The notes below the pieces were generated by a model. The model was not told the origin of the DNA. It did not search any database and worked only from the letters and a program-made list of their open reading frames with translations. From IMG/VR virus record IMGVR_UViG_3300042195_000059, positions 805-64,804 of that record: 64,000 nt of DNA. One strand, given 5' to 3'. The number at the start of each line of letters is the position of its first letter. Position 1 is the first letter of the stretch. The position numbers and the translations under genes were made by a program. Source of the DNA: a virus. Shown in pieces: positions 1 through 31,531 of the stretch.

Positions 1-538
1 TGCGCTCCGTAAGCGCCTGGTTCGCGGTCGTCCCGTATGCACTCAGATAATTCTGGTCATAGGCCGACTGCCGGTTCTGCGAATGCTCCTGCATCGCGCG
101 GGTGTAGGCTTCCGTTCCCGGATTGACACCCTGATTGGTGAGCTGCGTTTCAAGCGCTGCTTGCTGGCGGTCCCACTGCGGGTTCAAGAAAGTGTCTTGA
201 ATATCCGTCAGTTTCTTGGCCTGCGATGCTTCAAAGTTGAACGGTTGGCCCATCGTGCCGGCAACGTTATCAGCTTGCGTATTGCCGATCCCGCCGAGCT
301 TGCCAGACAGTGACATATACTGATCGTAAAGCGCCTGATTCTCCGGCGAAAGCGTTTGCGTCGCTGTGTATTGCGGCGTCCCAGATGCGCTCGTTCCGGT
401 TTGCTCATAGCTTAATGAGCCATAGGGCGTGTTCTGGTTCACCATATTCAACTCTTGCTGAGTTGTTGCGGTGGCTTTATTCATTTGGGTTTGCGCGGCG
501 GCTGTGGCTTCTGGCGATGGGGCCTTGGGTGTCTTCAT
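1..538 (-). CDS. virion-module protein, N-terminal fragment (ORF open to left window edge)
   Basis: ATG at 538 (minus strand) followed by 179 sense codons with no stop down to nt 2 (MKTPKAPSPEATAAAQTQMNKATATTQQELNMVNQNTPYGSLSYEQTG...). It is missing from the ORF track only because it has no stop inside the window. Q/N/T-rich composition resembles phage ejection or internal proteins. Confidence 0.6.
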   Translation of the reverse strand, partial: MKTPKAPSPEATAAAQTQMNKATATTQQELNMVNQNTPYGSLSYEQTGTSASGTPQYTATQTLSPENQALYDQYMSLSGKLGGIGNTQADNVAGTMGQPFNFEASQAKKLTDIQDTFLNPQWDRQQAALETQLTNQGVNPGTEAYTRAMQEHSQNRQSAYDQNYLSAYGTTANQALTER

Positions 539-609
539 CTTCGTTGTTTAATTCCTATTGCGCATACTTCGCAAATCAGGTAATCCCCTTCCTAGAAGGG
601 AGAACTTAC

Positions 610-1473
610 ATGACAGACGAAGAAAGATTTTGGGCAAAAGTAGCAAAAGCTGGTCCAGATGATTGCTGGCCGTGGACGGGGCATACTCATCCGAGAGGAT
701 ACGGAATTTTCTGGCTTGACGGCAAAAATGTCAGAGCGAACCGATACGCCTTGGAGCAAGTTGAAGGGCCGCCGCCGTTCGAAGGCGCGATGTCCCTTCA
801 CTCTTGCGATAATCCTCCATGCTGCAATCCAGGACACCTTCGCTGGGGAACGGGAGCGCAAAACTATAACGATATAGTCTTACGGCGAGGACCGATCAGG
901 GGCGAAGCTTCAGCAAGCGCCACTGTCACCAATGAGATCGTTGCAACGATCTATAAAATGCGCCTTGACGGATACATCATCACGGAGATTGCCGCAGAGC
1001 TAGGCATTCCAGAGACGACGGTCGAAAACATCTATGTGGGCAAGGCGTGGCCGCATCTTCTTGGCGTTGACGGAAACCCGACCCTCGAAGAACTCAAGGC
1101 GAAGAGGAAGCGCAAAAACCCTAAGCGCGCTCACAATCTGGTTGTCACTGACGACATTGCCGACGACATTCTTCGTTCCCGCATGGCTGGCGAATCCATC
1201 TCCGCTATCGCGACGCGCCTTGACCTGCCGCGCGGCACCATATCTCCAGTCTACTGCGGCCTCTCGTGCAAGCACAGACTTGGCGTGGATGGCAATCCAA
1301 CATTCGACGAGCTACGAACGGTTCAGGCTCCCAATCCAAAATACAAGCTAACAGAAGACGACATTATCGAAATCAGATCCCATCTAGGCAATGGTGTGGT
1401 TGGCGCTGATCTGGCGCGCCGATATGGTGTTAGTCGTGCCACTATTGCGAACATCAAGAGCGGGAAGAGGTAA
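610..1473 (+). CDS. HNH homing-type endonuclease with three C-terminal HTH repeats
   Basis: Track ORF 310..1473 trimmed to ATG 610, which is preceded by GAAGGGAGA. HNH motif HSCDNPPCCNPGHLRWGTGAQNYND. Three ~50-aa HTH-like repeats, two of them ending LGVDGNPT(L/F)(E/D)EL. It is the only plus-strand gene in a minus-strand virion block. Confidence 0.8.
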   Translation: MTDEERFWAKVAKAGPDDCWPWTGHTHPRGYGIFWLDGKNVRANRYALEQVEGPPPFEGAMSLHSCDNPPCCNPGHLRWGTGAQNYNDIVLRRGPIRGEASASATVTNEIVATIYKMRLDGYIITEIAAELGIPETTVENIYVGKAWPHLLGVDGNPTLEELKAKRKRKNPKRAHNLVVTDDIADDILRSRMAGESISAIATRLDLPRGTISPVYCGLSCKHRLGVDGNPTFDELRTVQAPNPKYKLTEDDIIEIRSHLGNGVVGADLARRYGVSRATIANIKSGKR

Positions 1474-1878
1474 CCACTTCCTAGCTTGATCGGGAAACAG
1501 GGCGTAGACGAAAGCATCGTCCCGCTTGAGGGGGCCGTAATAACGGCGCTGAACGCATTCGAACTTGAAGCCGAGCCGCGTGATCAGGTCACGCATGGTC
1601 TTGTTGTCGCGCCGGGTTGATGCGGTTACTCTGATGCAACCGAGATCGACGAACAGATGTGCGTAGCAAGCGCGGATGGTGCGGCGCGTCATCGCGCCCG
1701 GCGCATAGATCGTCAGATCGGCGTTGAAGCCGTTATAGCCTCCGACAACCCAGCCGCCGACAAGTTCTCCGGCATCGTTCAATATGCCGATTGCCCCGAA
1801 TGGAGGAACGATTTCCTGCCCGAGGCATGACCCGATCCATCTTCCGACTTCGGCGTCACACCCGACCAGTAACCGCAT
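1384..1878 (-). CDS. GNAT-family acetyltransferase-like protein
   Basis: 164-aa ORF. The C-terminal core ...TASTRRDNKTMRDLITRLGFKFECVQRRYYG resembles the GNAT motif A/B region. The last 30 codons overlap the convergent HNH gene. Confidence 0.5.
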   Translation of the reverse strand: MRLLVGCDAEVGRWIGSCLGQEIVPPFGAIGILNDAGELVGGWVVGGYNGFNADLTIYAPGAMTRRTIRACYAHLFVDLGCIRVTASTRRDNKTMRDLITRLGFKFECVQRRYYGPLKRDDAFVYALFPDQARKWLPLPALDVRNSGTTNTISARQISANHTIA

Positions 1879-3461
1879 CAGATAAAGGCTCCGGACTCCA
1901 TCAAGACATCAAAACCATTCACGCGCAGTGTCGGGGCCAGATCCGCGCCGCCAACTGAAAGCACGCTGACTTTGCCCCGGATCGAGGCGCAATACCCTAT
2001 GCCCGCAACGGTCGTCCAGTCCGCTATCGTCCGTTCCTCTTCCGGCCATACGTCTACGTCCCATACGGCTTCATCCCACTGAGCGCCCGGCGTTATGCTG
2101 CTGTCGGGGACGGATAGCGGGGCGTCGTCGCGAAAGTCCGTATTGAATGCGATGCCAAGCGAGACCTGCCCGTCCGTCGTCAGGATCGGGCGACACATGA
2201 CCCAGCGTTTCAGGTTGCCGCGCTGCTCGAAATAGTTGAAAGCCGTCTTGAACTCTGCCTCGATAGCCGAACCGTCGTCGGTCCCGCCTGTGTCAGCCTC
2301 GTAGACAATCCCGGCATTGCCGCCAAAGAACAGCCTGTCCTTGAACACCTCCCAGCAATTAGCCTCCTGGCCGAGGAACCGGCACCACGCGCCAGTCACG
2401 GTGTTCATGACATATTGCTGCTGCGATGCGTTAGCGGCGGCCGGAACGTTCAATATGGCGCGTGTTCCACGTGGATAGCTGATGAGCTGCCAGCCGAAAT
2501 TGTCCGCCCAGTTGCGCGCCGCCTGGTTCATGGTGGGCTGAATATTTGCCGTCAGGGAGACGCTGATCGCCGCGCCGCGCTCGATGACCAGAGCGCGGCT
2601 GATCGGCAGGACGCCGTCGATCGATATGATGACGAGATCCGCGCCAACCCGCGTAAAACACCGCATCCCGATCGGTGGCCCGATCTGGAATACGCCTTTC
2701 AGTTGCCATGTCGCAGCGCTGTCCGGATCGATGCCGGAATAAATCGCCACTTGCCCCTTGGAGGAAACGAACGCTGCATAGTCCTCCGGCCCGTCGCCGC
2801 CGTCGATCGACCATGTTCCCATCGCAACGAGATAGCCGCCCAGCGAGAACAGCTTGCCAAGATCGAAGGTTGTTGCATCCCCCTGAATGGAGTTTGTCGG
2901 AAGGTATGCGGCCTTTGTCGAATCTGCGAGAACGAACCACAGGCGGTTTTTATGCACGTTGATGTTGACGATTTCGGAACTTGTGATGCCGGTGATCGTC
3001 GGCGTTGCCCAGCTCGTGCCGTTGTAATATCTTGGCGCATCGGCTCCATTGCACACCCAGAGGAACTTGCCGCCGGTCGTGGTGAAGTTCACATGCTGGA
3101 AGCGGGCATTCGTCAGGGACGTGACATCAGCCGATGGCGTGTCCGTCGTCACATCATAGATCGTATCGTTCGCGGCGGCAAACAATGCATCGCCAGCGGC
3201 GGTATCGCCATGATACGCCATGAGGCTTTCAACAGGCGTCGTCTCGGTCGTGTCGCTGTGCTCGATGAACCCGTTACGGGTTTCGATATAGCCCGGCTGG
3301 GGAAACCAGTTGTCGATCTGGATCGCACGATCCGGGGCCATGTTTGCAAGAGGCGATATTGAATCCCAGCCCCCGGTCGGAGGCGGGACCGATGCACCGC
3401 GCGCGACAACACCGCCGCCGCCGGTTCGCCGCTTGCGTTGAAGAACTGCCGTCAGTCGCAT
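1878..3461 (-). CDS. virion structural protein (527 aa)
   Basis: Track ORF 1878..3650 trimmed to ATG 3461, which overlaps the upstream stop by 1 nt (TGATG). Assigned by its position in the structural operon. Confidence 0.6.
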   Translation of the reverse strand: MRLTAVLQRKRRTGGGGVVARGASVPPPTGGWDSISPLANMAPDRAIQIDNWFPQPGYIETRNGFIEHSDTTETTPVESLMAYHGDTAAGDALFAAANDTIYDVTTDTPSADVTSLTNARFQHVNFTTTGGKFLWVCNGADAPRYYNGTSWATPTITGITSSEIVNINVHKNRLWFVLADSTKAAYLPTNSIQGDATTFDLGKLFSLGGYLVAMGTWSIDGGDGPEDYAAFVSSKGQVAIYSGIDPDSAATWQLKGVFQIGPPIGMRCFTRVGADLVIISIDGVLPISRALVIERGAAISVSLTANIQPTMNQAARNWADNFGWQLISYPRGTRAILNVPAAANASQQQYVMNTVTGAWCRFLGQEANCWEVFKDRLFFGGNAGIVYEADTGGTDDGSAIEAEFKTAFNYFEQRGNLKRWVMCRPILTTDGQVSLGIAFNTDFRDDAPLSVPDSSITPGAQWDEAVWDVDVWPEEERTIADWTTVAGIGYCASIRGKVSVLSVGGADLAPTLRVNGFDVLMESGAFI

Positions 3462-4396
3462 CAGCTTGATGGCCCGGGGAAGTTGCCGTCCTGAATGTGG
3501 CCGGTGCTGATCAGGAACGAACGGGACTGCTTGCGGGACAGGGAAAGCGTCTTCTGGCCGCCGTCTCTGGCTTTCTCGCGGTTTACCCAATCGATATATT
3601 CCGCTTGAATATCGGCATAGGCGAAGCCCTTGATCTGCCAGAAGCGCCACTTGATGCCAAGCTGAAGCAGTCCGTCAGGGAAGACAACCTCGTCATCGTT
3701 CGCCGTCAGCTTGTTGGCAAATGTGCCATCAGCTTTCGAAACCCAGCCGTTCGAGATATATTCCCAGACAAGGGTGCCGGGATAATCTCCTGACGCCACG
3801 GGCGGCGGCCAGATCCGGAACGCGGTCGGCCGTCTGCCGACCTGCCGCCATTTACGCCGGGGGCCGAACGGAACGATGCCGGAGCGTTGCCACTGATCGA
3901 CCTGCGGGGATTGCGGACCGACAAGCTCCCATTGAAAACGCCGATCCCAGTGGGTCTGATCGATATAACGATCAAAGTCTGTCGGGATGTCGAACGTGTC
4001 TTTGGTGAAGGTGAGATCCACCGCCGTGCCGGTTTCGTCCACCTCCTGCGTCAACGTCACCTGTGTCGAACTATCGACAGAAGCGATCCGGGTGGCTTCC
4101 TGAATGCCTTCACCCGACACCGCATAGGCTGTTGACAGCCCGGTGGTATCCGAAATCCCCGTCACGACGCGAGAGCCTGCCGTGGTATTGCCGGCAAGTT
4201 CAGTCGGCCCCCCGAACTCGATTACATATTCGGTTTGCAGACCTGTCCAGTCAACGGCTTTCATCAGTTCGTTGCCGTCGCGATTTGCGAGAGCGACAAG
4301 CTGACGGGTTTGCAATTCCGTTGCCGTGACGGCAGAGGGGCGGACGAGACCAAGCTCGTCCGCGACCTCTTGAAGGATTTCGATGAATGTGGGCAT
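3461..4396 (-). CDS. virion structural protein (311 aa)
   Basis: Long ORF tightly packed in the structural operon. No motif recognised. Confidence 0.6.
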   Translation of the reverse strand: MPTFIEILQEVADELGLVRPSAVTATELQTRQLVALANRDGNELMKAVDWTGLQTEYVIEFGGPTELAGNTTAGSRVVTGISDTTGLSTAYAVSGEGIQEATRIASVDSSTQVTLTQEVDETGTAVDLTFTKDTFDIPTDFDRYIDQTHWDRRFQWELVGPQSPQVDQWQRSGIVPFGPRRKWRQVGRRPTAFRIWPPPVASGDYPGTLVWEYISNGWVSKADGTFANKLTANDDEVVFPDGLLQLGIKWRFWQIKGFAYADIQAEYIDWVNREKARDGGQKTLSLSRKQSRSFLISTGHIQDGNFPGPSS

Positions 4397-4397
4397 A

Positions 4398-4787
4398 TTA
4401 GCCGACAGTCCGCCAATTGGTAGCAGTCATCTTACGAAGGCGGATACCAGAATTTGCACTGGACCCAGCCGCAGTGATATCCAAATGCGCGTTTGCCGTC
4501 CCATTGTTGATCGTTCCGCCACTTTGTGGGAACACGCGTACAGCGTTTGAGCCGTCGAGATTGTAAACCTCGATCTCATCACCCAAGCCAGCGGCGCTAG
4601 GAAGCGTGACGGCCCCATTCGAACCCGCCGGAGTAGCCAGAACCGCTTTATTGCCGTCGCCCTTGAGAAGGCCGCCCGCGCTTCCCTGTGTGGCAGCGGT
4701 CGTCGTAACGCTGACGATAGTTACGCCAGTGCGCTTCGCCACCTCGTCCGGCACTCCAACTCCCATCAATCCACTTGCTGTCGCCAT
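4398..4787 (-). CDS. small virion-module protein (129 aa, Gly/Ala/Thr-rich)
   Basis: ORF track; tight packing within the structural operon. Confidence 0.5.
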   Translation of the reverse strand: MATASGLMGVGVPDEVAKRTGVTIVSVTTTAATQGSAGGLLKGDGNKAVLATPAGSNGAVTLPSAAGLGDEIEVYNLDGSNAVRVFPQSGGTINNGTANAHLDITAAGSSANSGIRLRKMTATNWRTVG

Positions 4788-4791
4788 AATA

Positions 4792-5415
4792 TCAAGTCTC
4801 CTCTTGCGCGCCGCGTCGGCCGCGTTTTGGTTTGTCGCTGTCCAACTCGTTTACGCGCTGCTCAAGCTTCGATACGATATCGCTCAGCTTGGCGATTTCA
4901 TTGTCCTTGGCGTCGAGCTTCGACTGAAACTCGTGGTAGTCCTTGCCTTTTTCGGCTGAATCCAGATAGCCTTGCGCCATCACCTGCCATTGCGATGCGC
5001 CAAGTCCGAGGTTCTGCAATTGCCCAGTGCCCAGCGTCGCCAGTTGCTCGATGGTCAGCACATGCATGAACTCCAGCGTCTTGACAGCGCCGGGATTGTG
5101 CGGGAACAGGACAGACAGCGGCGTGCCGTCGATCTTCTGCTGCTGCTTGGCTTCGAACGCCGCCCATTGCTGGGGAAAGCGTTGCTTGTCATCCGGACGG
5201 ACGCGGCGATCGCGCGTATCCTTCTCACCGGGTTGAATGATCGAGATATACGGGACCGATTCATAAATCGGGCGTCCCGCTTCCTGTGAGGCGGCCTTGC
5301 GCTGTTCCGGAAACATGTAGAATCTGGCCATCGCACGGTCCTGGAACTGAACGCGCTGGCCATTCTGGAATGACTTGTCGAAAGTCATCGGCAGGTTGGG
5401 GATTTCGGCTTCCAT
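4792..5415 (-). CDS. virion-module protein with C-terminal coiled coil (207 aa)
   Basis: ORF track. C-terminal segment KLDAKDNEIAKLSDIVSKLEQRVNELD has a heptad-like pattern. Confidence 0.5.
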   Translation of the reverse strand: MEAEIPNLPMTFDKSFQNGQRVQFQDRAMARFYMFPEQRKAASQEAGRPIYESVPYISIIQPGEKDTRDRRVRPDDKQRFPQQWAAFEAKQQQKIDGTPLSVLFPHNPGAVKTLEFMHVLTIEQLATLGTGQLQNLGLGASQWQVMAQGYLDSAEKGKDYHEFQSKLDAKDNEIAKLSDIVSKLEQRVNELDSDKPKRGRRGAQEET

Positions 5416-5442
5416 GATATTACCTTTTTGATCAGGCTGGGG

Positions 5443-6990
5443 TTAATTCCAGAACTCGGCCACCCACGGCAGGCGAGCCTGAACGTCCGCGTCACGCGGA
5501 TTGAATTTGCCGTGGAAATTGATGATGCGAGCATGCGCGGGCAGTTTGGTGCTACTGGGATGTGCAGCTTCGAGCGTGTCCGCTTTCAGAATGTCACGCT
5601 TGAACGACAAAACGCCATCAGCGGGCGTCCACACGGGCTGTGACGGCAGAACTTCGCTGATCCATGCCTGATCATAGCCGCTGAATTTGCCCGACGTGCG
5701 TAGCGCCAGCGCCTTCTCGGCATCAAACGTGTCGAGTACGTGCGGGAATGCTCCGGCGTTCATCTGGAAGACGGATGTGCAATACTGTCTTGGCCTGAAC
5801 GGATCTCGCCAGGCCTTGAACGGCGCGTCATGATCGAATAGCGGATCAAGCTTGTTGCAGATCACAACATCCAAGTCAGTGCAGGCAAAACGAGGGCCGA
5901 TGATGTCAGCCATTTCCGGCGCGAACAGTTTCAGGCGGTGCCAGTCCCGGCCATGCTCGAAATGATCGCGCCACATCGGCACGATGCGGATACTGCCGTC
6001 GATGCCTTCTGGATCGTCCGTGACGCAAACGAGTTCGCATGGCATGTCCAGCCAGCGGTCAACCATCCGCGCCCAGATATTCACGTCATTGGCATCATAG
6101 GCGATGTGTCCCTTCCACTTGAAGGTCACGACGCGAAGCTTATCAACCGCTCTCGCAGTCGATGGTTTTGGCGGTGTAGAAACAGTCTTTTCAGCTTCCG
6201 GCGGCGTCTCCAACCGCGCCTTGATCATTGCAGGAAGCAGCCCGTCGCCGAATATCTCGATGTCGATCCCAAAGCCGCGGAACAATTCATAGCGGCCAAA
6301 AAACGTTTCCGCGTGATGCGCCATTGTCGGCGTGGCGATGTACTTGAGACCCCTGAACCGGAATTCCCGGACTTCCTCGTCAAGGTTCTGCTTCTGGGTG
6401 AAAGCGTGCTTGTCGTCGCCGCGCATCGAGCCGTCATAGCCGAACAGATGCCATATGCGATAACCCTTCGCGAGGATTGGACCGAGGCATGATTGGCCGA
6501 CATTGTAGGCACCGCCGAAGATCGTGGCGCGCGGTGCCTGCTCGCGGATTGCCGCGGCCGCTCCTTCGTAATTATCGACCTGCCAGATCTCGACCTTGCG
6601 CCCCTCAAGGGCTTCGAAGATTTCCGGCTGACACTGAGAGCCGACGACATAGGTGGTATGGTCGTTCGCCTTGTCGAGAAACGACAGGTTTCCGGTTCGC
6701 GCATCGATCTGGAAATAGTAGTCCGGCACGATGCCGTGATCGATCAGGAAATTATGGCTCCCGTTCATCGAGGCAACGGAGAACCCGGCTTCCTGCCGCG
6801 CGCGGATATCGTCGATGTGATCGGCGAGCGACGGCCCGGAGGCGCAAATGCAAATGCTCTTGAATTCGACCTGCGGAAGGGGTCTGCCTGCATTCCGGCG
6901 GATGTTGTCGCACACCAGATCCGACGTTACATTGATGCCGTGAACGAATTTTGCTTCCGCCCACTTTTCTACGCCTTCGACGCTATCCAT
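5443..6990 (-). CDS. two-domain enzyme: DUF115/MptE (Maf-like) N-terminal domain plus GT-A-like glycosyltransferase C-terminal domain
   Basis: N-terminal ~270 aa carry ICASGPSL ... GGAYNVGQS ... LFGYDGS, the pattern of the MAF_flag10/DUF115 fold. A Pro-rich linker (TPPEAEKTVSTPPKPS) follows. The C-terminal ~220 aa contain a DXD-like TDLDVV. Confidence 0.7.
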   Translation of the reverse strand: MDSVEGVEKWAEAKFVHGINVTSDLVCDNIRRNAGRPLPQVEFKSICICASGPSLADHIDDIRARQEAGFSVASMNGSHNFLIDHGIVPDYYFQIDARTGNLSFLDKANDHTTYVVGSQCQPEIFEALEGRKVEIWQVDNYEGAAAAIREQAPRATIFGGAYNVGQSCLGPILAKGYRIWHLFGYDGSMRGDDKHAFTQKQNLDEEVREFRFRGLKYIATPTMAHHAETFFGRYELFRGFGIDIEIFGDGLLPAMIKARLETPPEAEKTVSTPPKPSTARAVDKLRVVTFKWKGHIAYDANDVNIWARMVDRWLDMPCELVCVTDDPEGIDGSIRIVPMWRDHFEHGRDWHRLKLFAPEMADIIGPRFACTDLDVVICNKLDPLFDHDAPFKAWRDPFRPRQYCTSVFQMNAGAFPHVLDTFDAEKALALRTSGKFSGYDQAWISEVLPSQPVWTPADGVLSFKRDILKADTLEAAHPSSTKLPAHARIINFHGKFNPRDADVQARLPWVAEFWN

Positions 6991-7484
6991 ACAGTGTCCT
7001 CAAATAGCTTTTTTTCCGGGAAAAATTCATTGACGGCGGCAACCACGCTGGGGAACTTCCGCAGGTCGTAGTCGTGACCGGTGACGAACCCGCCGGGCCT
7101 GACCTTGGGGGACCATGCGGCGATGTCTTCTGCGCATTCTTCCTGCGAGTGGCCGGCATCGATGAACACGAAGTCGAGCGATGCGTCATCGACCAAATCG
7201 GCGGCTTCGACGGAGGGTTTTTCGATCAGGCGGATTCTGTCGTCAAACGCCGCAGCCACACGCATGAACGCTGCTTTGTTGCCGTCTTGCTGCTCGCGGC
7301 TCCATTGTGTGCCCATCCACGTCAGATAGCCTTCCGGCCAGTAATCGACTGCTGTAAGGTGCAAGTTCGGAATGGCGCTGAGAAGTCCATTCGTGAAACG
7401 GCCCTCGGCAACGCCGATTTCCGCACCACTTTCCAGGCCATGCTCTTCGCACAGCCTGGAAAGAACTTCCCAGCGCCAGACCAT
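6969..7484 (-). CDS. class I SAM-dependent methyltransferase
   Basis: Motifs GAEIGVAEG and FVFIDAGHSQEECAEDIAAWSPKVRPGGFVTGHDY, typical of the Methyltransf_24 / O-methyltransferase type. Confidence 0.7.
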   Translation of the reverse strand: MVWRWEVLSRLCEEHGLESGAEIGVAEGRFTNGLLSAIPNLHLTAVDYWPEGYLTWMGTQWSREQQDGNKAAFMRVAAAFDDRIRLIEKPSVEAADLVDDASLDFVFIDAGHSQEECAEDIAAWSPKVRPGGFVTGHDYDLRKFPSVVAAVNEFFPEKKLFEDTVWIASKA

Positions 7485-8017
7485 TACGCGATAATGTTGG
7501 ACGGTCTGTTGTGGACCGTGAACTGCGGATAGGTGGCAATGATCGCTGTTGCTCCACCGCCCGAGGACGCAGACGCCACGGAACGGACGCCATCCACCAG
7601 AATCGGATCGCCAGTTGATGCAACTGCCGTCAGGACGCCAACGCTCGCAGATGTGTAAAGAGCATCGTTCGGGCCAACGGCGTCCTTGGTGAGAACTTGC
7701 AGGCCATGACCATGTACGGCGACCCAGCCATACTGATCCGTTGCGAATGCTACTTGTGCGGCACCGAACGAATTCGCCTGCAAGGCAAGGGTGGACGTGC
7801 AGGCCCGTGCCGTGAAGTCCTCGTCAATGCACACTGCCGCATATTGCGCCAATACACCGGACGATTTCACGAACACATAACGCTGGTCCTGCGTTGCCCG
7901 GACAGCCTGTCCGAGCGCAAACGGAAGTCCGGGGACCTCCGGATTTGTTGTGGTGTTTGGCGCGTCATAAACAGTGTCAAGCTTGACGCCAAGCTCACCG
8001 GAGACTACGAATGCCAT
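7484..8017 (-). CDS. capsid-associated protein (possible decoration protein)
   Basis: 177-aa ORF immediately downstream of the major capsid gene. The assignment rests on position only. Confidence 0.4.
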   Translation of the reverse strand: MAFVVSGELGVKLDTVYDAPNTTTNPEVPGLPFALGQAVRATQDQRYVFVKSSGVLAQYAAVCIDEDFTARACTSTLALQANSFGAAQVAFATDQYGWVAVHGHGLQVLTKDAVGPNDALYTSASVGVLTAVASTGDPILVDGVRSVASASSGGGATAIIATYPQFTVHNRPSNIIA

Positions 8018-8035
8018 TGTTTTATCTCCTTTGGC

Positions 8036-9061
8036 TTAGTCGTTGGTCAGAATGCCGTGGAACAGCATGCCTGATGCGGTCATGTTGCCTGCCCACCCGA
8101 TAAGTCTTATCATCGCATCTTGGTTCACCGAGAAGCGATCCGGATCGAGCGGGACCATGTTCCGCTGCGAATGGGGACGCCAATACAGGTAATCGGAGTT
8201 GATGAAGAACATCGTGCCCGATGGAGCGCCGCCAACCGCGCCGACGCCAGCAGCGCCGAAGGTGTTGCCGTCGTTCACCGAACCCTGGAACCCGCCGTCG
8301 AGAACCACATCCGCATCCATGAACTTCACGGACATGAATCCGGCCTTGGCCATGTCGCTCTTTTCGTCCGTGATGCGCGCGATCGCGTGCAGCGAACGAT
8401 TGTAGACTGACCATGCGGTATTGTCGGCGAGGATCAGGTCAACCCGATCCGGGCCGCGCATGGTGTTGGTCCACATGTTGAGCATGTACTCATAGATGTT
8501 CGACGGGCTGAGAGCCGCGCCGCCATCGGTGACTGCCCGGTAGGCATAGTTCTGCCAGAACTCCCAAGCAGAACGGTCGATGCCGCCAACGGTACCGGTA
8601 GTCGGAGAAGCATCGATCAGGGCCTGCAGGCCGGTGATCTGTCCCGTAAGGGAGCCGTCCGAATAGGCATCGTAGGCAAGACCGTTGCGGAAGGTACGCT
8701 CCGCATTCTCGACACGGCTTCCAAGCAGGTCGATGATCGCCTCGCGCCCGGAGTTCTGGAGAAGCTCCAGACCCGAGATGGAGACGGCCACGGCTGCCTG
8801 ACGGATGGGATATTCTGCCGCCGTGAAGACATCCGAAGGCTGGATGTTGAGCAGCTCATATCCGCTGTAACGCGAATAGGTGCTGTTATTGGCGTATTCG
8901 ATTTCCTGAACGATCGTGCGACCGCCAGAAAAAGGCTTCTGCTTGCCACGCGCTGACAGCCGGGTCAGGACTGCGTTATTGCGGGTGACAGAATCCGCTA
9001 ATTTGCCACTACGGTTCCGAAGTGTGGTAGTGACAATTTCGCTCAGATTGGGAGACACCAT
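8036..9061 (-). CDS. major capsid protein
   Basis: 341 aa, directly after the scaffold-like gene. The N-terminus MVSPNLSEIVTTTLRNRSGKLADSVTRNNAVL resembles coat proteins of P22-like/HK97-fold families as I recall them. Confidence 0.7.
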   Translation of the reverse strand: MVSPNLSEIVTTTLRNRSGKLADSVTRNNAVLTRLSARGKQKPFSGGRTIVQEIEYANNSTYSRYSGYELLNIQPSDVFTAAEYPIRQAAVAVSISGLELLQNSGREAIIDLLGSRVENAERTFRNGLAYDAYSDGSLTGQITGLQALIDASPTTGTVGGIDRSAWEFWQNYAYRAVTDGGAALSPSNIYEYMLNMWTNTMRGPDRVDLILADNTAWSVYNRSLHAIARITDEKSDMAKAGFMSVKFMDADVVLDGGFQGSVNDGNTFGAAGVGAVGGAPSGTMFFINSDYLYWRPHSQRNMVPLDPDRFSVNQDAMIRLIGWAGNMTASGMLFHGILTND

Positions 9062-9095
9062 CGTCTCTTTCTCCTATTGAATTGTCGGGAAGGGC

Positions 9096-10322
9096 TTAAG
9101 AGTGGGCGTCCCAGGCGGCGAGAAGATCATCACGCACGGTGCCCTTCGAATTGACAGGCGCTGATACCTGTCCGGAAGGTGCTCCTCTGACCGAAACCGA
9201 TGCGCGCTTGGCGGCTTCGGACTTGGCGCGTTTTTCTTCTGCTAGCCTGTCGGCCTGGGTCTTGCTCTCTTCATTGGTTTTGCGGAGGCGGTCGTTGATG
9301 AGCGCCTCGCGAACCTCCGGGTGGAGGTAGCAAGCCTGTTCGTATGCTTTGGCAAGATCGGTCCGGAAGTCTCCGGTGCGTTCGATCACGCCGGTCGTAA
9401 ACAGACGGTTGATCGTCTCTTCGACATCGGAAAAGTAGCGGTACTCAACTGACGATTTGAGTTCGTCGATAACCTTCTGAGCTTGCGAGATCTGGCGTTC
9501 TTGATCCGCCTCCTGCCTGCTTTGAAAGGTGCTTTCGAGAGTGCTCAGTTTCTGCGTCAATGGGTTCAGAGCGGATTGAAGCGCCCTGTTGACGGCATCT
9601 CTTACATAGGGGTCGTCATACTCGTCCTGACCCGCTGGGGCCGCGCCATTTGTCTGCCCGTTCTGATGGGGCTGGGAGGCTGGCGCTGCGCCTCCAAACA
9701 TCTGCTGAAGCTGCTGCCTGCTGATGCCTGCGTTCTGGGCGATCGCGAGCAGTCCGCGCATGGGGTCCTGATTAAGAAGATTTTCAAAGCCGACATAGTT
9801 TTTCAACGCGGCTTCCAGCGTCGTGCCGGAATTCTTCGCCATCTCGGCATATTGGTCAATGCCCTTGTAGTCTCTCAGCTTGGCGAAGCCGTTATTGACC
9901 TCCTGCTCACGCTTGATAATATCGGCGCGGATATGAGACGGGAGCTGCTCCCACTCGGATTTTGACTTGATCGACCACCCCGGAGGCGGTGCGCCTTCTG
10001 CCTCTGCCGCCAGCGGCTCAGGCTCTTCCTGTGGCGGCTGCTCTTCCGTGGCTGGCTTGTCGGGTGCGGGTTCAGCCTTCGGCTCTTCCTCGCGCTCCCA
10101 TTGCGCCCTGACATCTTCTTCCGTAGCTTCGGGAGCGGTTTCCGCCGCTTTGCGAAAGCGGCCTCTTTCATCACGGGCGCGGCTGTCTGTTGGCTCGGGC
10201 GCCGCAACATCCGTTGCAGGCGCGTCACTGTCCGTCCAGCTGTCGAATGCTGCCTCGAGATCGGCGCGCACGGAAGTGTCTTCGGTGGGCGTTGATGTCG
10301 CCTCCGTCAGGTCGTCTTGCAT
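9096..10322 (-). CDS. scaffolding protein
   Basis: 408 aa, acidic, Ala/Glu/Gln-rich and helical, located between the portal-side genes and the capsid gene. Confidence 0.55.
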   Translation of the reverse strand: MQDDLTEATSTPTEDTSVRADLEAAFDSWTDSDAPATDVAAPEPTDSRARDERGRFRKAAETAPEATEEDVRAQWEREEEPKAEPAPDKPATEEQPPQEEPEPLAAEAEGAPPPGWSIKSKSEWEQLPSHIRADIIKREQEVNNGFAKLRDYKGIDQYAEMAKNSGTTLEAALKNYVGFENLLNQDPMRGLLAIAQNAGISRQQLQQMFGGAAPASQPHQNGQTNGAAPAGQDEYDDPYVRDAVNRALQSALNPLTQKLSTLESTFQSRQEADQERQISQAQKVIDELKSSVEYRYFSDVEETINRLFTTGVIERTGDFRTDLAKAYEQACYLHPEVREALINDRLRKTNEESKTQADRLAEEKRAKSEAAKRASVSVRGAPSGQVSAPVNSKGTVRDDLLAAWDAHS

Positions 10323-10371
10323 GGTTTTCCCTTGAGAGTTACTATAAATAAAGGCCGCCGAAGCGACCTGA

Positions 10372-11496
10372 TCATCTGAACCTTACTATCTGCTGGTCGT
10401 CTGGAACGTCCTGCGTTTCCCACGGGGGAGTGGCGCGGCGGTCTTCAGCGCTGAACTTGCGGCGTCTCTGGACGTTGCGGGCTTCGGTTTCGCCAGCAAG
10501 ACGGCGATACGCGTCATGCGGATCTGCTGCGGCGCGCAAATTGTTCTCGATAACGAAATCAAAATCGCCGGTCACAGGATCGTAACCATCAGGATTTTTC
10601 CTTGCGCGTTCAAGCGCCTCCTGAAGGGTCTCCCTTGATGGGAATTGCATTGGGCTTCCACCGGGCGCAAAACCTTCTCGCCCTTGCACATTATGCTGAA
10701 GCTCGTGCAGGCCGATGCTCCTTGCGTCGTTCGGGTCAGTCCCTTCTACCAACATATAAGGCCACTTCTCATCGTGCCAATACGCGCCTTTCGGCTCCAA
10801 ATCCGGCCCGTAGCTTCCGTACATGTCGGGGACATCGCCGTAAGCGGCAGAATATTCGGGATGATCAAGCCCCGTGAACTTGCCGGACTTGCTTGTCTGG
10901 AACATACCGGCTTTATCCGGAGTGACGCCGCTGAGCTGCGCGGCGCTGTCGTCGATCTCGAACTTCCACTTGCCATCGACGCCTTGCATCCATCCGGTGT
11001 CGCGCCAGATGTCATCACGTGACGCGCCGGAGGATGCCATTTCCTGAGCTTGCGCGAGCGCCTGCTGGTCCGCAGTTTTCGCTGTCGGTCCTGCAAAGAT
11101 AGTCGTGGTGCTTCGCGGATCATCCGGATACACAGAGTCCAGCAGCCGGTTGAACCCTTCCGGCAAATTCCGGTCCATCCATGCAGCACCGCGTTTCGTG
11201 CCTCTGGCGACGATGCCAGCGCCGGGGATTGCGCCGACAAGCGCTGTCGCTAAATCACCGTAGTTTGAAGCGGCTTGCCCGTAATCGCCGCGCAAAAGTG
11301 CATCACCTCCCTGTCCGGAGGATTTCCACGCATCATAGAGGGACATCGCCTCGCCGGAGCCGGGAGCCATCCCGAGACCAAATTCAGCGGCTGGAATCAG
11401 GTTGCGCCATGTCGCTTCCGGCGATATGCCTTGGCCATACGCGAAGATATCGTCAGGCGAGCCTAGCGCCAGATTACGGGCCGTTTGGCTTGGCAT
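10372..11496 (-). CDS. HExxH metallopeptidase-like head-module protein
   Basis: GLHELQHNVQ (HExxH) followed by LAGETEARNVQRRR. Located between the portal and scaffold genes. Confidence 0.55.
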   Translation of the reverse strand: MPSQTARNLALGSPDDIFAYGQGISPEATWRNLIPAAEFGLGMAPGSGEAMSLYDAWKSSGQGGDALLRGDYGQAASNYGDLATALVGAIPGAGIVARGTKRGAAWMDRNLPEGFNRLLDSVYPDDPRSTTTIFAGPTAKTADQQALAQAQEMASSGASRDDIWRDTGWMQGVDGKWKFEIDDSAAQLSGVTPDKAGMFQTSKSGKFTGLDHPEYSAAYGDVPDMYGSYGPDLEPKGAYWHDEKWPYMLVEGTDPNDARSIGLHELQHNVQGREGFAPGGSPMQFPSRETLQEALERARKNPDGYDPVTGDFDFVIENNLRAAADPHDAYRRLAGETEARNVQRRRKFSAEDRRATPPWETQDVPDDQQIVRFR

Positions 11497-11978: not shown

Positions 11979-12182
11979 TCATCCGTTATAGCCTCTCGCC
12001 TCTGCCGCCTGCCGCATCATGAGCCATTCCTCGTTCGATGGGTGATAGGCGTTGAAATAACGATCCGTCTCCCATTCGAATTGCCATTTGTTGGGGTCGA
12101 ATTCGATGAGCTTCTTGTCAGCCGAAGACATGGCGTCGTACTCGGCGCGGGTGATGTGTTGGGCGTCTTGCCAGTTGGTCAT
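11979..12182 (-). CDS. hypothetical protein (67 aa)
   Basis: ORF track. Start overlaps the portal stop (ATGA). Confidence 0.5.
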   Translation of the reverse strand: MTNWQDAQHITRAEYDAMSSADKKLIEFDPNKWQFEWETDRYFNAYHPSNEEWLMMRQAAEARGYNG

Positions 12183-30890: not shown

Positions 30891-30961
30891 TTTTCCTATG
30901 TTGACAGTGACGTATTTACATCACCAGTGTACCCGGCGTTTCCCCCGCCGGGATCTCGTTT

Positions 30962-31531
30962 TCAAGCAGCCGCTTGATTGAATTTCCCTGTTTCGTCGCC
31001 CCATGAGTCCCAGCCGGTACGATCCGTGCGACTGAACAGCTCGACGCGCCAAGCATCCGGCAGATAGCGTTCTGCCCATGCGTAAGCTTCGTCCGGTTTG
31101 CGTGAGTGCTCTCTGACAAGTCCCTCGATGACGTTGCGCTCTGATCGCGAATTGATCGGATTGCCGATGAAGCCCAGAAGGAAGGGTTCGGAGGCGGAGC
31201 GCACGCGGTAGCCGGTGCCGAACGCCGTCTTGCCGTTCACGGTCTTCTTGTGCCAAACGCCGCCGGTTTTATAGTCGAAGCCCCAAGCGCTCATGACTTC
31301 GAACGCCTTGTCGAGCATGGGCCATGTCGCCCAGAGAAAGAGGCAGCAGTCGCCAGATGCGAGTTGTGAAACCGGAAGCGCTTTGATAGCCTCAAGATCC
31401 ATGCAATCGTAATGGTGCTTGGCGTTTTTCTTCTCGCCCTTGACGCTCCAGTTCATGAAGTTCCAAGGCGGGTCGGCGACAATCATTCCGTATGTGAGCG
31501 GGCGCAAGGGCGCGAAGGGCCAGTCTGTCAT
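30962..31531 (-). CDS. MT-A70-family N6-adenine DNA methyltransferase
   Basis: Track ORF trimmed to ATG 31531 (ATGA overlap). Motifs IVADPPWNF and REHSRKPDE. Confidence 0.8.
   Translation of the reverse strand: MTDWPFAPLRPLTYGMIVADPPWNFMNWSVKGEKKNAKHHYDCMDLEAIKALPVSQLASGDCCLFLWATWPMLDKAFEVMSAWGFDYKTGGVWHKKTVNGKTAFGTGYRVRSASEPFLLGFIGNPINSRSERNVIEGLVREHSRKPDEAYAWAERYLPDAWRVELFSRTDRTGWDSWGDETGKFNQAAA

What the first reader, a model, noticed from the sequence alone, without database searches (positions are those of the whole stretch)
5443..8017. Maf-like (DUF115) plus glycosyltransferase fusion and a SAM methyltransferase wedged between capsid and tail genes: candidate virion glycosylation module
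Directly downstream of the major capsid gene and a 177-aa capsid-associated ORF, and in the same operon with 1-22 nt overlaps, lie two enzymes.
- A class I SAM methyltransferase.
- A 515-aa protein. Its N-terminal half has the DUF115/MptE fold pattern (ICASGPSL...LFGYDGS) found in Maf flagellin nonulosonic-acid transferases. Its C-terminal half looks like a GT-A glycosyltransferase (TDLDVV).

Enzymes placed inside the head module and co-translated with structural proteins suggest that the substrate is a virion protein, meaning an O-linked and possibly methylated sugar on the capsid or decoration protein, rather than host LPS. Capsid glycosylation is documented for a few actinophages, but I am not aware of a Maf-type system in phages of this host group.
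Basis: partly seen in the sequence, partly recalled or inferred. Interest (0 to 1): 0.75.

Follow-up and report, generated by a model that had tools for sequence, protein, structure and literature searches.

The report
Sugar-adding enzyme cassette beside phage capsid gene
An uncultured temperate phage carries, inside its head-gene operon, a flagellin-glycosyltransferase-like (Maf-type) enzyme fused to a second glycosyltransferase, plus a sugar-type O-methyltransferase. The same kind of cassette sits in the same slot in about a fifth of related phages, so the particle itself is probably sugar-coated, but no experiment has tested this.

Summary
- **Methyltransferase:** window 6969-7484 (-) encodes a 171-aa Methyltransf_24 enzyme whose solved-structure relatives are all cation-dependent O-methyltransferases.
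- **Fusion protein:** 5443-6990 (-) encodes a soluble 515-aa fusion. Its N-terminal ~260 aa form a PF01973 domain closer to the flagellin glycosyltransferase Maf than to archaeal MptE, with invariant Asp at both Maf catalytic positions. Its C-terminal ~230 aa form a retaining-type GT-A (GT8/GT6-like) domain with an invariant DLD motif.
- **Operon placement:** both genes overlap their neighbours in the late operon, between the capsid gene plus a 177-aa protein and the head-tail adaptor.

In 13 of 70 capsid-related viral contigs, the same slot holds a cassette that always contains the Maf-like domain. Most cassettes also carry an O-methyltransferase and several a GT8; one carries GDP-mannose dehydratase. 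Domains are fused in several orders. Here the 177-aa protein is inherited with the enzymes, not with the capsid gene. An unrelated siphovirus (TvV-S20) has an analogous cassette between its head and head-closure genes.

Best reading: late, cytoplasmic assembly of a short O-methylated glycan on a head protein. The acceptor, the sugars and the glycosylation itself are inferred. I rate it a new variant of a known kind.

The parts
8036..9061 (-). Major capsid protein (341 aa). It forms the upstream boundary of the slot and is a possible glycan acceptor.
   Evidence: phrog_9953 'major head protein', E 3e-103. 67% nt identity to the annotated MCP of Bradyrhizobium phage ppBjS10J-1.
7484..8017 (-). 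p177, a small protein encoded just after the MCP. It is a putative minor head or decoration protein, is co-inherited with the enzymes, and is my leading candidate acceptor.
   Evidence: Weak phrog_29386 'virion structural protein' hit. A profile of the family finds the post-MCP small protein in nearly all related loci. Its closest relatives (39-52% identity) lie in cassette-bearing phages whose MCP is only ~30% identical. It has an AAGGAG ribosome-binding site 18 nt after the MCP stop. By position it matches SU10 gp10, an Ig-like minor-capsid-like protein (PMC9509320).
6969..7484 (-). Class I SAM-dependent O-methyltransferase (171 aa, Methyltransf_24).
   Evidence: PF13578, E 1.8e-19. A family profile hits only cation-dependent O-methyltransferases in the PDB: 3NTV at 3.7e-10, with NovP and MycF weaker. 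Its start overlaps the p177 stop in TAATG. It has no transmembrane segment.
6205..6990 (-). N-terminal Maf-type (PF01973) transferase domain of the 515-aa protein, residues 1-262. It carries the GPS motif (6826-6843), D96 (6703-6705) and D186 within FGYDGS (6427-6444).
   Evidence: PF01973, E 1.8e-17. The AF2 model has pLDDT 93. Foldseek finds MptE 8SD5 at E 8e-7 and Maf 5MU5 at E 1.9e-5 with TMq 0.56. The family profile hits Maf at E 1.8e-14 and MptE at 1.1e-7. D96 and D186 align to Maf E324 and D415.
5446..6141 (-). C-terminal GT-A (retaining, GT8/GT6-like) glycosyltransferase domain of the 515-aa protein, residues 284-515. It carries the invariant DLD motif (5869-5877) and an FHG motif.
   Evidence: phrog_1962, E 6e-17. 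Foldseek finds ABO GT6, LgtC and glycogenin at E ~1e-7. The profile hits glycogenin-2 at E 1.3e-3 with the DxD aligned. D372-L373-D374 are invariant in 35 homologues.
4792..5415 (-). p207, a conserved backbone gene that marks the downstream boundary of the slot.
   Evidence: phrog_20268. It is present in both cassette-less and cassette-bearing relatives and follows the MCP backbone rather than the cassette.
3461..4396 (-). Head-tail adaptor, where the tail module begins.
   Evidence: PF24175 SU10_adaptor, E 9e-7; phrog_6013 'tail protein', E 4e-39.

Best explanation
The three genes p177, the methyltransferase and the 515-aa fusion form a mobile, late-expressed unit in the head module. It most likely puts a short, O-methylated glycan on a surface protein of the phage head while the particle assembles in the cytoplasm.

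**Proposed steps, all inferred**
1. The Maf-like N-domain uses a host-made activated sugar to glycosylate a hydroxyl residue of a head protein. By analogy with Maf, the donor would be a CMP-activated ulosonic acid such as Kdo, pseudaminic acid or legionaminic acid. p177 is the best candidate acceptor and the MCP the second.
2. The fused GT-A domain adds a hexose from a UDP-sugar. Alternatively it primes the site and the Maf-like domain caps it.
3. The O-methyltransferase methylates a sugar hydroxyl.

**Shown here**
- The domain identities and the conserved catalytic-type residues.
- That the proteins are soluble.
- The operon placement with overlapping reading frames.
- That the slot is conserved, and what the cassettes in it contain.
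- That p177 is inherited together with the enzymes.

**Inferred**
- That the transferases are active.
- The donor sugars and the order of steps.
- That the acceptor is a virion protein.
For: **Enzyme identities**
- All three catalytic modules are glycan-type enzymes with strong statistics.
- The two acidic residues essential for Maf activity (E324 and D415 of M. magneticum Maf; bioRxiv 10.1101/2020.06.03.131540) align to D96 and D186. Both are invariant in A1, A2 and A7; in A5, D96 is invariant and D186 is at least 90% conserved.

**Expression context**
- The genes are translationally coupled within the late operon and show no compositional anomaly: GC3 is 0.69-0.70 against 0.72 for the MCP.
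- Neither enzyme has a transmembrane segment.

**The slot**
- The order MCP, ~165-aa protein, Maf-like gene is found in every context examined: L001-L006, L008, L009, L095-L097 and 13 of 70 MCP-recruited IMG/VR loci. The basal slot holds only the small protein.
- Cassette contents are those of glycan assembly and tailoring. They include methyltransferases of at least three families, GT8, GDP-mannose 4,6-dehydratase (E 1e-106) and sulfotransferase. The domains occur fused in different orders, the Rosetta-stone pattern.

**Co-inheritance**
- Identity to L001 peaks over the unit: p177 44%, methyltransferase 50%, Maf-like domain 55%, GT domain 65%. It falls to 32% for the MCP and 21% for the adaptor.
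- Phages whose MCP is 66-74% identical lack the cassette, and their p177 is only 28-31% identical or undetected.

**Independent analogue**
- TvV-S20, an unrelated siphovirus-like phage, carries a homologue of the GT domain (33% identity, E 1e-24), sialyltransferase-annotated/weak PF01973 genes, a GT-D, a GT2 and two methyltransferases between its putative MCP and its head-closure gene.

**Precedents**
- Virus-encoded capsid glycosylation that includes a methyltransferase exists: PBCV-1 A064R (PMC7826918) and the cluster F mycobacteriophages (PMC11256854).
Against: - There is no biochemical or mass-spectrometry evidence, and the phage is uncultured.
- No acceptor signature was found. The Ser+Thr content of the MCP and of the small protein does not differ between cassette-bearing and cassette-less phages (p = 0.07 and 0.46).
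- p177 has no recognisable fold or family, so its capsid location rests on position alone.
- PF01973 also contains a pyrophosphokinase (MptE), and Foldseek ranks MptE slightly above Maf by E-value.
- The phage encodes no nonulosonic-acid or CMP-sugar synthesis genes, so the donor would have to come from the host.
- The phage is temperate (integrase at 45525-46664), so lysogenic conversion is possible in principle.
- GT-A/GT8-like phage enzymes are known to act on DNA-linked glycans (bioRxiv 10.1101/2023.12.21.572611).
Confidence: 0.55

Rival explanations
1. The cassette remodels a host-cell glycoconjugate (LPS O-antigen or core, capsule, EPS, or even flagellin) rather than the virion. This could be lysogenic conversion or receptor masking late in infection.
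For: - The phage is temperate (integrase).
- Maf enzymes naturally act on a host surface protein, flagellin.
- GT8 enzymes such as LgtC, WaaJ and WaaO act on LPS.
- PHROG files the GT domain under 'moron, auxiliary metabolic gene and host takeover'.
- A second GT4 and FkbM methyltransferase pair in the tail-fibre region does look moron-like, with lower GC and one gene on the opposite strand.
Against: - The genes overlap structural genes in the late operon, with no minus-strand promoter-like site between the p177 start and the 515-aa stop and only weak 5-6-bp terminator-like stems, no more than in shuffled sequence. They lie ~38 kb from the integrase.
- Their composition matches the neighbouring genes.
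- There are no membrane segments, unlike the Gtr-type seroconversion proteins.
- The slot next to the capsid gene is conserved down to ~30% MCP identity and recurs in an unrelated siphovirus. A host-targeted moron would not be expected to keep that position.
- No prophage copy was found in 185,579 species-representative genomes.
Confidence: 0.2
2. The N-domain is not a glycosyltransferase. It would instead be an MptE-like pyrophosphokinase or another nucleotide-dependent transferase acting on a small molecule or activating a sugar. The cassette would then be metabolic and would not modify proteins.
For: - The Pfam family is named for MptE.
- Foldseek's best E-value goes to MjHPPK 8SD5 (8e-7), and thiamin pyrophosphokinases also appear in the list.
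- UniProt auto-annotates the viral relatives as 'MptE-like'.
Against: - The family profile matches Maf seven orders of magnitude better than MptE, and over the whole domain including the D...H...Q second motif. MptE matches only profile positions 8-95.
- The TM-score to Maf (0.56) is higher than to MptE (0.47-0.49), and GT29 and GT42 sialyltransferases follow in the hit lists.
- The fusion partners are glycosyltransferases, O-methyltransferases and sulfotransferases; the only nucleotide-metabolism partner seen was one CTP-dependent riboflavin-kinase-like domain (PF01982) in 1 of 90.
- There are no pterin or folate genes nearby.
Confidence: 0.1
3. The enzymes hypermodify phage DNA by glycosylating and methylating modified bases, to evade restriction.
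For: - Phage GT-A enzymes, including WaaJ/WaaO-like ones, decorate 5hmC in DNA (bioRxiv 10.1101/2023.12.21.572611).
- PHROG labels the methyltransferase family 'DNA methyltransferase'.
- The genome carries other candidate DNA-modification genes, MT-A70 and a PAPS-reductase-like gene.
Against: - Known DNA-glycan glycosyltransferases cluster with C5-methyltransferase, 5mYOX or ThyS genes. None was found among the window ORFs scanned, which include every ORF of 200 aa or more kept in the non-overlapping gene set.
- The methyltransferase profile hits only small-molecule and sugar O-methyltransferases, never DNA methyltransferases.
- The location is the head module, not the replication module.
- One related cassette carries GDP-mannose dehydratase.
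Confidence: 0.06

Closest known systems
Maf (motility accessory factor) flagellin nonulosonic-acid O-glycosyltransferases, e.g. Magnetospirillum magneticum Maf (PDB 5MU5) and Clostridium botulinum CbMaf
   Same: - They share the PF01973 catalytic domain (profile E 1.8e-14, TMq 0.56).
- The GPS motif and both catalytically essential acidic positions are conserved.
- Both are soluble cytoplasmic enzymes that would modify a self-assembling structural protein before assembly.
- Maf systems are often accompanied by methylation of the sugar.
   Different: - The phage domain is ~260 aa and lacks the Maf N- and C-terminal domains; only ~232 of 632 residues align.
- It is fused to a GT-A domain.
- There are no flagellin or nonulosonic-acid synthesis genes nearby.
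- The context is a phage head operon.
- Sequence identity is only ~17%.
Mycobacteriophage virion glycosylation (Che8 and other cluster F, O and C phages; Freeman et al. 2023, cited in PMC11256854)
   Same: Phage-encoded glycosyltransferases modify capsid proteins and produce a glycan shield.
   Different: - The hosts are actinobacterial.
- The glycosyltransferase genes lie near the right end of the genome, not in the head operon.
- No Maf or PF01973 enzyme is reported, to my knowledge and by the literature searches.
- I could not read the primary paper.
Chlorovirus PBCV-1 A064R and A111/114R, multidomain capsid-glycan enzymes
   Same: A single virus-encoded polypeptide combines two glycosyltransferase domains with a methyltransferase that O-methylates the terminal sugar of the capsid-protein glycan (PMC7826918). 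Functionally this is the closest analogue of a GT+GT fusion plus O-methyltransferase.
   Different: - It is a giant virus of a eukaryote.
- The glycans are N-linked, with rhamnosyltransferase domains.
- There is no PF01973 domain and no detectable homology.
Archaeal MptE (6-hydroxymethyl-7,8-dihydropterin pyrophosphokinase, PDB 8SD5)
   Same: The Pfam family, the Rossmann-like fold and the N-terminal GPS nucleotide-binding motif are shared.
   Different: - Only the N-terminal half aligns by sequence.
- The functional context is unrelated.
- The phage domain's second motif (FG-D...H...Q) is shared with Maf and GT42 sialyltransferases, not with MptE.
GT8 and GT6 retaining GT-A glycosyltransferases (glycogenin, LgtC, ABO transferases)
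   Same: - The GT-A fold is shared (Foldseek E ~1e-7).
- The DxD motif aligns with that of glycogenin.
- An H-G-K-x-x-P motif near the C-terminus resembles the GT8 HxxGxxKPW motif.
- Glycogenin is itself a protein-glycosylating enzyme.
   Different: - There is no Pfam GT8 hit for the window protein.
- Identity is 9-17%.
- The GT8 genes in related slots (L021, L064, L068) are not demonstrably orthologous to this domain.
Tetraselmis viridis virus S20 (NC_020840) head-module glyco-cassette, unstudied
   Same: - It carries a homologue of the window's GT domain (33% identity).
- It also has sialyltransferase-annotated/weak PF01973 genes, a GT-D, a GT2, and Methyltransf_23 and FkbM methyltransferases.
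- All sit between the putative MCP and the head-closure gene.
   Different: - It is a siphovirus-type backbone.
- The genes are unfused, and there are more of them.
- The protein after its MCP is a disordered Pro/Lys/Ser-rich protein unrelated to p177.

Membership tests
Maf flagellin nonulosonic-acid glycosyltransferase | Central PF01973 (Maf_flag10/DUF115) catalytic domain | tested here: met
   PF01973 at E 1.8e-17, above the gathering score. The family profile hits 5MU5 at E 1.8e-14 over residues 247-432. Foldseek gives TMq 0.56.
Maf flagellin nonulosonic-acid glycosyltransferase | Acidic residues equivalent to MmMaf E324 and D415, which are essential for activity | tested here: met
   They align to D96 and D186. 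Both are invariant in A1, A2 and A7; in A5, D96 is invariant and D186 is at least 90% conserved. The residue roles come from bioRxiv 10.1101/2020.06.03.131540.
Maf flagellin nonulosonic-acid glycosyltransferase | Three-domain, ~600-700-aa architecture with flanking domains | tested here: not met
   The phage unit is ~260 aa, and only 232 columns of the 632-residue 5MU5 align. The rest of the protein is a GT-A domain.
Maf flagellin nonulosonic-acid glycosyltransferase | Genomic linkage to flagellin and CMP-nonulosonic-acid biosynthesis genes | tested here: not met
   No such genes turned up among the window ORFs scanned, which include every ORF of 200 aa or more kept in the non-overlapping gene set. 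The neighbours are head genes.
Maf flagellin nonulosonic-acid glycosyltransferase | Transfer of a CMP-activated ulosonic acid to Ser/Thr of a protein | not testable with these tools
   This needs co-expression followed by mass spectrometry, or an in-vitro assay.
MptE-type pterin pyrophosphokinase | Full-length similarity to archaeal MptE | tested here: not met
   The profile matches 8SD5 only over profile positions 8-95 (E 1.1e-7). The fold-level match has TMq 0.47-0.49 with rmsd ~13.5 Å.
MptE-type pterin pyrophosphokinase | Pterin or folate biosynthesis context | tested here: not met
   The neighbours and fusion partners are glycosyltransferases, methyltransferases and sulfotransferases, with one CTP-dependent riboflavin-kinase-like domain (PF01982) in 1 of 90; none is a pterin or folate gene.
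GT8-like retaining GT-A glycosyltransferase | GT-A fold with a DxD metal/nucleotide-sugar motif | tested here: met
   Foldseek finds LgtC, glycogenin and ABO GT6 at E ~1e-7. DLD 372-374 is invariant and aligns to the glycogenin DAD.
GT8-like retaining GT-A glycosyltransferase | Sequence membership in PF01501 | tested here: inconclusive
   The window protein has no Pfam GT8 hit. The profile hits glycogenin-2 at E 1.3e-3. Separate GT8 genes reach or approach the PF01501 gathering score in related slots (L064 27.2 bits, L068 24.6, L021 20.0, against a cut-off of 24.3), but they are not shown to be orthologues.
Cation-dependent class I SAM O-methyltransferase (Methyltransf_24 / family 3 OMT-like) | SAM-binding Rossmann domain above the Pfam threshold, with relatives that are O-methyltransferases | tested here: met
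   PF13578 at 71 bits against a cut-off of 26.3. Nearly all of the 60 PDB profile hits shown are O-methyltransferases, with a few weak tRNA and unnamed methyltransferases and no DNA methyltransferase. Homologues in related slots also hit Methyltransf_3 and TylF.
Phage-encoded virion glycosylation system | Glycan demonstrated on virion proteins and dependent on phage glycosyltransferases | not testable with these tools
   Only indirect evidence is available: late-operon placement, slot conservation and co-inheritance with p177.
Seroconversion (Gtr-type or O-antigen-modifying) prophage module | Membrane-embedded modifying enzymes expressed from the prophage, usually near the integrase or attachment site | tested here: not met
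   There are no hydrophobic segments (maximum KD19 score 1.1). The genes overlap late structural genes and lie ~38 kb from the integrase.
Phage DNA glycosyl-hypermodification pathway | Glycosyltransferase clustered with C5-methyltransferase/5mYOX or ThyS-type base-modifying enzymes | tested here: not met
   None was found in the window. The criterion comes from bioRxiv 10.1101/2023.12.21.572611.

The most novel reading that the evidence does not exclude
A large phage-borne family of minimal Maf-like protein glycosyltransferases exists, with at least 1,750 clusters at 50% identity. It decorates the heads of Gram-negative podoviruses, and some siphoviruses, with acidic ulosonic sugars taken from the host CMP-sugar pool, for example CMP-Kdo. 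The sugars are then tailored by fused O-methyltransferases, sulfotransferases and GT8 domains. The cassette moves between capsid lineages together with its dedicated acceptor protein, p177. This would be a second, independent and much more widespread origin of phage virion glycosylation, outside the actinophages.
Probability: 0.3. Interest if true: 0.82.

Novelty: new variant of a known kind. Interest (0 to 1): 0.68.

Why it matters
Virion glycosylation by phage-encoded enzymes has been shown only for a few mycobacteriophages and for giant algal viruses. If this cassette does what its anatomy suggests, three things follow.

- **Prevalence.** Sugar-coated capsids would be common in environmental phages of Gram-negative bacteria. 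About one in five relatives of this capsid lineage carries a cassette, and the N-domain family has about 1,750 clusters at 50% identity.
- **Enzymology.** Maf-type enzymes would no longer be flagellin-specific. They would become a general tool for glycosylating self-assembling protein shells.
- **Applications.** A compact soluble enzyme paired with a small acceptor protein would be useful for glyco-engineering phage particles and for altering immune recognition or stability in phage therapy.

The idea can be tested directly by co-expression in E. coli.

Tried and rejected
- **Acceptor signature.** I compared Ser+Thr content of the MCP and of the post-MCP protein between cassette-bearing (n=20) and cassette-less (n=43) loci. 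There was no significant difference.
- **p177 identity.** No Pfam or NCBIfam family matches. A PDB profile search gave only a chance hit. About 200 metagenomic homologues are all 'hypothetical'.
- **NCBIfam on both enzymes.** No hits.
- **tblastn of the N-domain against 50,697 GenBank phage genomes.** No match even at E 0.1. The full-length query found only hits to the GT domain.
- **Scan of GTDB species-representative genomes for prophage copies.** Only three distant GT-domain hits in Enterobacteriaceae MAGs, which I did not follow up.
- **hhalign of the family against the GT8 protein of L064.** No relationship was detected, so I do not claim orthology. Against TvV-S20 TVGG_46 there was only a weak local match.
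- **TvV-S20 TVGG_50 against p177.** Unrelated.
- **Literature searches for phage-encoded Maf, DUF115 or MptE.** Nothing relevant. Freeman et al. 2023 was not retrievable. No paper on the MptE structure was found.
- **Rejected explanations.** The PHROG label 'DNA methyltransferase' for the methyltransferase is contradicted. A simple moron insertion is unlikely, since composition, overlaps and slot conservation argue against it.

Full report
**What the window is.** It covers 64.0 kb of a 64.8-kb JGI metagenome contig and is a temperate tailed phage. It carries an integrase at 45525-46664, RecT, a primase-polymerase, a large terminase, a portal and an SU10-type adaptor. The nearest deposited genome is Bradyrhizobium phage ppBjS10J-1, which matches only over the capsid gene at 67% nt identity. 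The late operon runs on the minus strand and appears to wrap around the contig ends.

**Checking the observation.** On the minus strand the order is:
- MCP, 8036-9061 (phrog_9953, E 3e-103);
- a 177-aa ORF, 7484-8017;
- a 171-aa Methyltransf_24 protein, 6969-7484 (E 1.8e-19);
- a 515-aa protein, 5443-6990;
- 207-aa and 129-aa ORFs;
- the adaptor, 3461-4396.

In the 515-aa protein, residues 43-187 match PF01973 (E 1.8e-17) and residues 297-514 match phrog_1962 'glycosyltransferase' (E 6e-17). The junctions are an 18-nt gap with AAGGAG, a TAATG overlap, a 22-nt overlap and a 27-nt gap. In the region scanned (3000-10500), terminator-like sites are no more frequent than in shuffled sequence; the minus-strand ones inside the unit are weak 5-6-bp stems, and no minus-strand promoter-like site lies between the p177 start and the 515-aa stop. 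Codon-position GC matches the structural genes. None of the three proteins has a hydrophobic segment.

**Anatomy of the 515-aa protein.**
- *Model.* An AlphaFold2 model built on 35 homologues is confident (pLDDT 88.6). It shows two domains joined by a low-confidence linker at about residues 263-283.
- *C-terminal domain.* The whole model retrieves retaining GT-A enzymes: ABO GT6, LgtC and glycogenin at E ~1e-7. The family profile aligns its invariant D372-L373-D374 with the DxD of glycogenin-2 (E 1.3e-3).
- *N-terminal domain, by fold.* Modelled alone (pLDDT 93.4), it retrieves MjHPPK/MptE 8SD5 (E 8e-7, TMq 0.47-0.49), Maf 5MU5 (E 1.9e-5, TMq 0.56), then SteA, GT29 sialyltransferases and thiamin pyrophosphokinases. 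Fold alone therefore does not decide between Maf and MptE.
- *N-terminal domain, by sequence.* A profile of 42 diverse family members does decide. Maf scores E 1.8e-14 in one alignment that spans the whole central domain. MptE scores 1.1e-7 and aligns only over its N-terminal GPS-motif half. Cst-II (GT42) sialyltransferases appear just below threshold on the second motif.
- *Catalytic residues.* E324 and D415 were shown by mutagenesis to be essential in M. magneticum Maf (bioRxiv 10.1101/2020.06.03.131540). They align with D96 and D186, which are invariant or nearly invariant in every alignment I made. H195 and Q199 also match Maf residues.

'Maf-like' is therefore justified for the catalytic domain. 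The flanking Maf domains and the flagellin and nonulosonic-acid gene context are absent.

**The methyltransferase.** A profile of seven homologues hits almost only cation-dependent O-methyltransferases in the PDB. The best is 3NTV at 3.7e-10, and the sugar O-methyltransferases NovP and MycF score more weakly. Homologues in related phages also hit the Methyltransf_3 and TylF models. The PHROG label 'DNA methyltransferase' is not supported.

**Comparative genomics, the main new result.**
- *Full-length homologues.* There are about 55, all metagenomic. Every context I fetched shows portal, scaffold, MCP, a ~165-aa protein, the methyltransferase, the Maf-like/GT gene, a ~200-aa protein and the adaptor.
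- *How often the slot is filled.* I recruited 79 IMG/VR loci through the capsid protein and mapped the window's proteins onto them. Of the 70 with a complete slot, 57 hold no Maf-like gene; in most of these the slot is only ~520-700 nt, room for the small protein alone, though some run to 1-2.2 kb with contents I did not examine. The other 13 carry a PF01973 gene immediately after it.
- *Cassette architectures.* They vary widely:
  - the Maf-like domain alone (L039, L074);
  - Maf-like fused to Methyltransf_25 (L027, L081-L083);
  - the GT, Maf-like and Methyltransf_24 domains fused in a different order (L006, L084), or GT plus Maf-like only (L086);
  - unfused Maf-like, Methyltransf_24 and GT8 genes (L064);
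  - Maf-like, Methyltransf_24, GDP-mannose 4,6-dehydratase (E 1e-106) and GT8 (L068).
- *Size of the family.* In 1.84 billion cluster representatives, the N-domain has 1,753 relatives at E ≤ 1e-3. Among 90 fused representatives the recognisable partners were methyltransferases of several families (20 hit Methyltransf_23, 18 Methyltransf_25, 7 Methyltransf_24, 1 FkbM; the first two overlap), 2 sulfotransferases, 1 GT7 and 1 CTP-dependent riboflavin-kinase-like domain.
- *Absence from cultured phages.* ppBjS10J-1 lacks the cassette. The N-domain has no tblastn match in 50,697 GenBank phage genomes even at E 0.1. BFVD holds only uncultured-phage relatives, auto-named 'MptE-like'.

**The mobile unit.** Compared with L001-type phages, the window's identity peaks over the unit and collapses on both sides:

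| Protein | Identity to L001 |
|---|---|
| MCP | 32% |
| p177 | 44% |
| methyltransferase | 50% |
| Maf-like domain | 55% |
| GT domain | 65% |
| adaptor | 21% |

Phages whose MCP is 66-74% identical (L013-L018) lack the cassette. Their post-MCP protein is only 28-31% identical to p177 or is undetectable by BLAST, although it is still homologous at profile level. A true close relative from a sediment metagenome (L097) keeps everything: MCP 84%, p177 83%, Maf-like domain 77%, GT domain 75%. So p177 is inherited with the enzymes. For that reason I rank it first as candidate acceptor, ahead of the MCP. By position it corresponds to SU10 gp10, an Ig-like, minor-capsid-like protein encoded between the MCP and the adaptor (PMC9509320).

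**An independent analogue.** The GT domain's best deposited relatives are in 'Tetraselmis viridis virus' S20 and SI1. These are regarded as ordinary bacteriophages from co-cultured bacteria (PMC9356565). In S20 the homologue (33% identity, E 1e-24) ends a ~5-kb block that lies between the putative MCP plus a 188-aa protein and the head-closure gene. The block holds two genes annotated as sialyltransferases (one with a weak PF01973 hit), a GT-D, a Methyltransf_23, a GT2 and an FkbM methyltransferase. Finding the same kind of cassette at the same kind of position in an unrelated morphotype argues that the position has functional meaning.

**Mechanism.**
- *Shown.* The domain identities, the conserved catalytic-type residues, solubility, late-operon coupling, slot conservation, the glycan-type content of the cassettes, and co-inheritance with p177.
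- *Inferred.* The Maf-like domain transfers a host-made, probably CMP-activated, sugar to a head protein. The GT-A domain adds a UDP-hexose. The O-methyltransferase caps a hydroxyl.
- *Why the donor must be host-derived.* The phage has no sugar-nucleotide synthesis genes. CMP-Kdo is universal in Gram-negative bacteria, and a Maf enzyme can use it.
- *Why the Maf-like domain is probably the priming transferase.* Cassettes exist with the Maf-like domain alone, or with only a methyltransferase added.

**Rivals.**
- *Host-envelope remodelling (confidence 0.2).* The phage is temperate and GT8 enzymes act on LPS. Against this are the overlap with late genes, the native composition, the absence of membrane segments, the strict capsid-side slot and the absence of prophage copies in 185,579 reference genomes.
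- *A non-glycosyl MptE-like activity (0.1).* Argued against and by the fusion partners.
- *DNA hypermodification (0.06).* GT-A enzymes can act on 5hmC. However, no C5-methyltransferase, 5mYOX or ThyS gene is present, and the methyltransferase is an O-methyltransferase.

**Comparison with what is known, and novelty.** Functionally the closest systems are the mycobacteriophage virion glycosylation genes and PBCV-1 A064R, which combines two glycosyltransferase domains with an O-methyltransferase acting on the capsid glycan. Enzymatically the closest are Maf for the N-domain and GT8/GT6 for the C-domain. New here are the use of a minimal Maf-type domain by phages, its fixed slot in the head operon, its modular fusions, its apparent travel with a small head-associated protein, and its breadth in metagenomes. 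Literature searches found no description of any of this. I rate it a new variant of a known kind, with interest 0.68. It is a coherent, widespread and directly testable system, but it is entirely inferential and comes from an uncultured phage.

Noticed in passing
window 54853-56732: A second glycosyltransferase/methyltransferase pair sits inside the tail-fibre region. It comprises a GT4 (GT-B) glycosyltransferase at 54853-56061 (-) (PF00534/PF13692, E ~1e-17; PDB relatives 7FG9 and the pterin glucosyltransferases) and an FkbM-family methyltransferase at 56004-56732 on the opposite (+) strand (E 1e-8). Both lie in a lower-GC patch (0.536). The pair looks moron-like. It could extend the same glycan, modify the adjacent collagen-like fibre, or act on the host.
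   Followed up: partly
window 53410-54837 and 56742-58010: A collagen-triple-helix-repeat protein (475 aa, PF01391, E 7e-14) and a protein with a weak Mtd-second-domain hit flank the GT4 and FkbM pair. They are probably tail fibre or receptor-binding proteins. Collagen-like fibres are often glycosylated in other systems.
   Followed up: no
L092 (NC_020840.1, Tetraselmis viridis virus S20), locus 1122-6705: A deposited siphovirus-like phage has a ~5-kb block between its putative MCP and its head-closure gene. The block contains 2 genes annotated 'alpha-2,3-sialyltransferase', a GT-D, a Methyltransf_23, a GT2, an FkbM methyltransferase and a homologue of the window's GT domain. The protein just after its MCP (TVGG_50) is a disordered Pro/Lys/Ser/Gly-rich polypeptide.
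   Followed up: partly
L068 4477-5457: A GDP-mannose 4,6-dehydratase (PF16363, E 1e-106) sits inside the capsid-side slot of a related phage, next to Maf-like, Methyltransf_24 and GT8 genes. That cassette would therefore make its own 6-deoxyhexose donor.
   Followed up: partly
L095 8001-10775 (P0205): A 924-aa slot protein gave two PF01973 hits around a Methyltransf_24 hit, while tblastn aligned the window's GT domain to its N-terminal ~210 residues. Either way, the family forms multi-enzyme polypeptides.
   Followed up: no
L097 11521-12309: The closest relative, from a sediment metagenome, has an extra 262-aa gene directly after the 514-aa fusion gene. The window lacks it. It has no precomputed Pfam hit and no PDB sequence match.
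   Followed up: partly
window 310-1473 (+): A 387-aa ORF on the opposite strand carries an HNH_3 endonuclease motif and several HTH repeats. It interrupts the tail end of the late operon and looks like a homing endonuclease.
   Followed up: no
window 29955-32705: Three genes lie in a row on the minus strand: an outer-membrane beta-barrel protein (PF13505, E 3e-10), an MT-A70 adenine methyltransferase (E 2e-26) and a PAPS-reductase-domain protein (E 1e-28). The outer-membrane protein could be a lysogenic-conversion or exclusion factor. The other two are candidates for DNA modification.
   Followed up: no
window 12179-14764: The 861-aa portal has a ~100-residue Pro/Gln/Met/Gly-rich low-complexity insert and a long Gln/Glu/Met-rich C-terminal tail that is probably a coiled coil. 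Both are unusual for portals.
   Followed up: no
window 10372-11496: A 374-aa protein with an LPD23 'large polyvalent protein-associated' domain (E 1e-24) lies between the portal and scaffold genes. In relatives the same domain sits after the adaptor and nozzle genes instead (L001).
   Followed up: no
window 1384-1878: A 164-aa ORF lies downstream of the 590-aa tail protein, at the position where ppBjS10J-1 annotates a GNAT N-acetyltransferase. It had no Pfam hit at E < 1e-3.
   Followed up: no
L010-L012 (Pseudescherichia / Enterobacteriaceae MAGs): These are the only genome-collection hits to the family. They are 24-26% identical relatives of the GT domain alone. I did not examine their context.
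   Followed up: no
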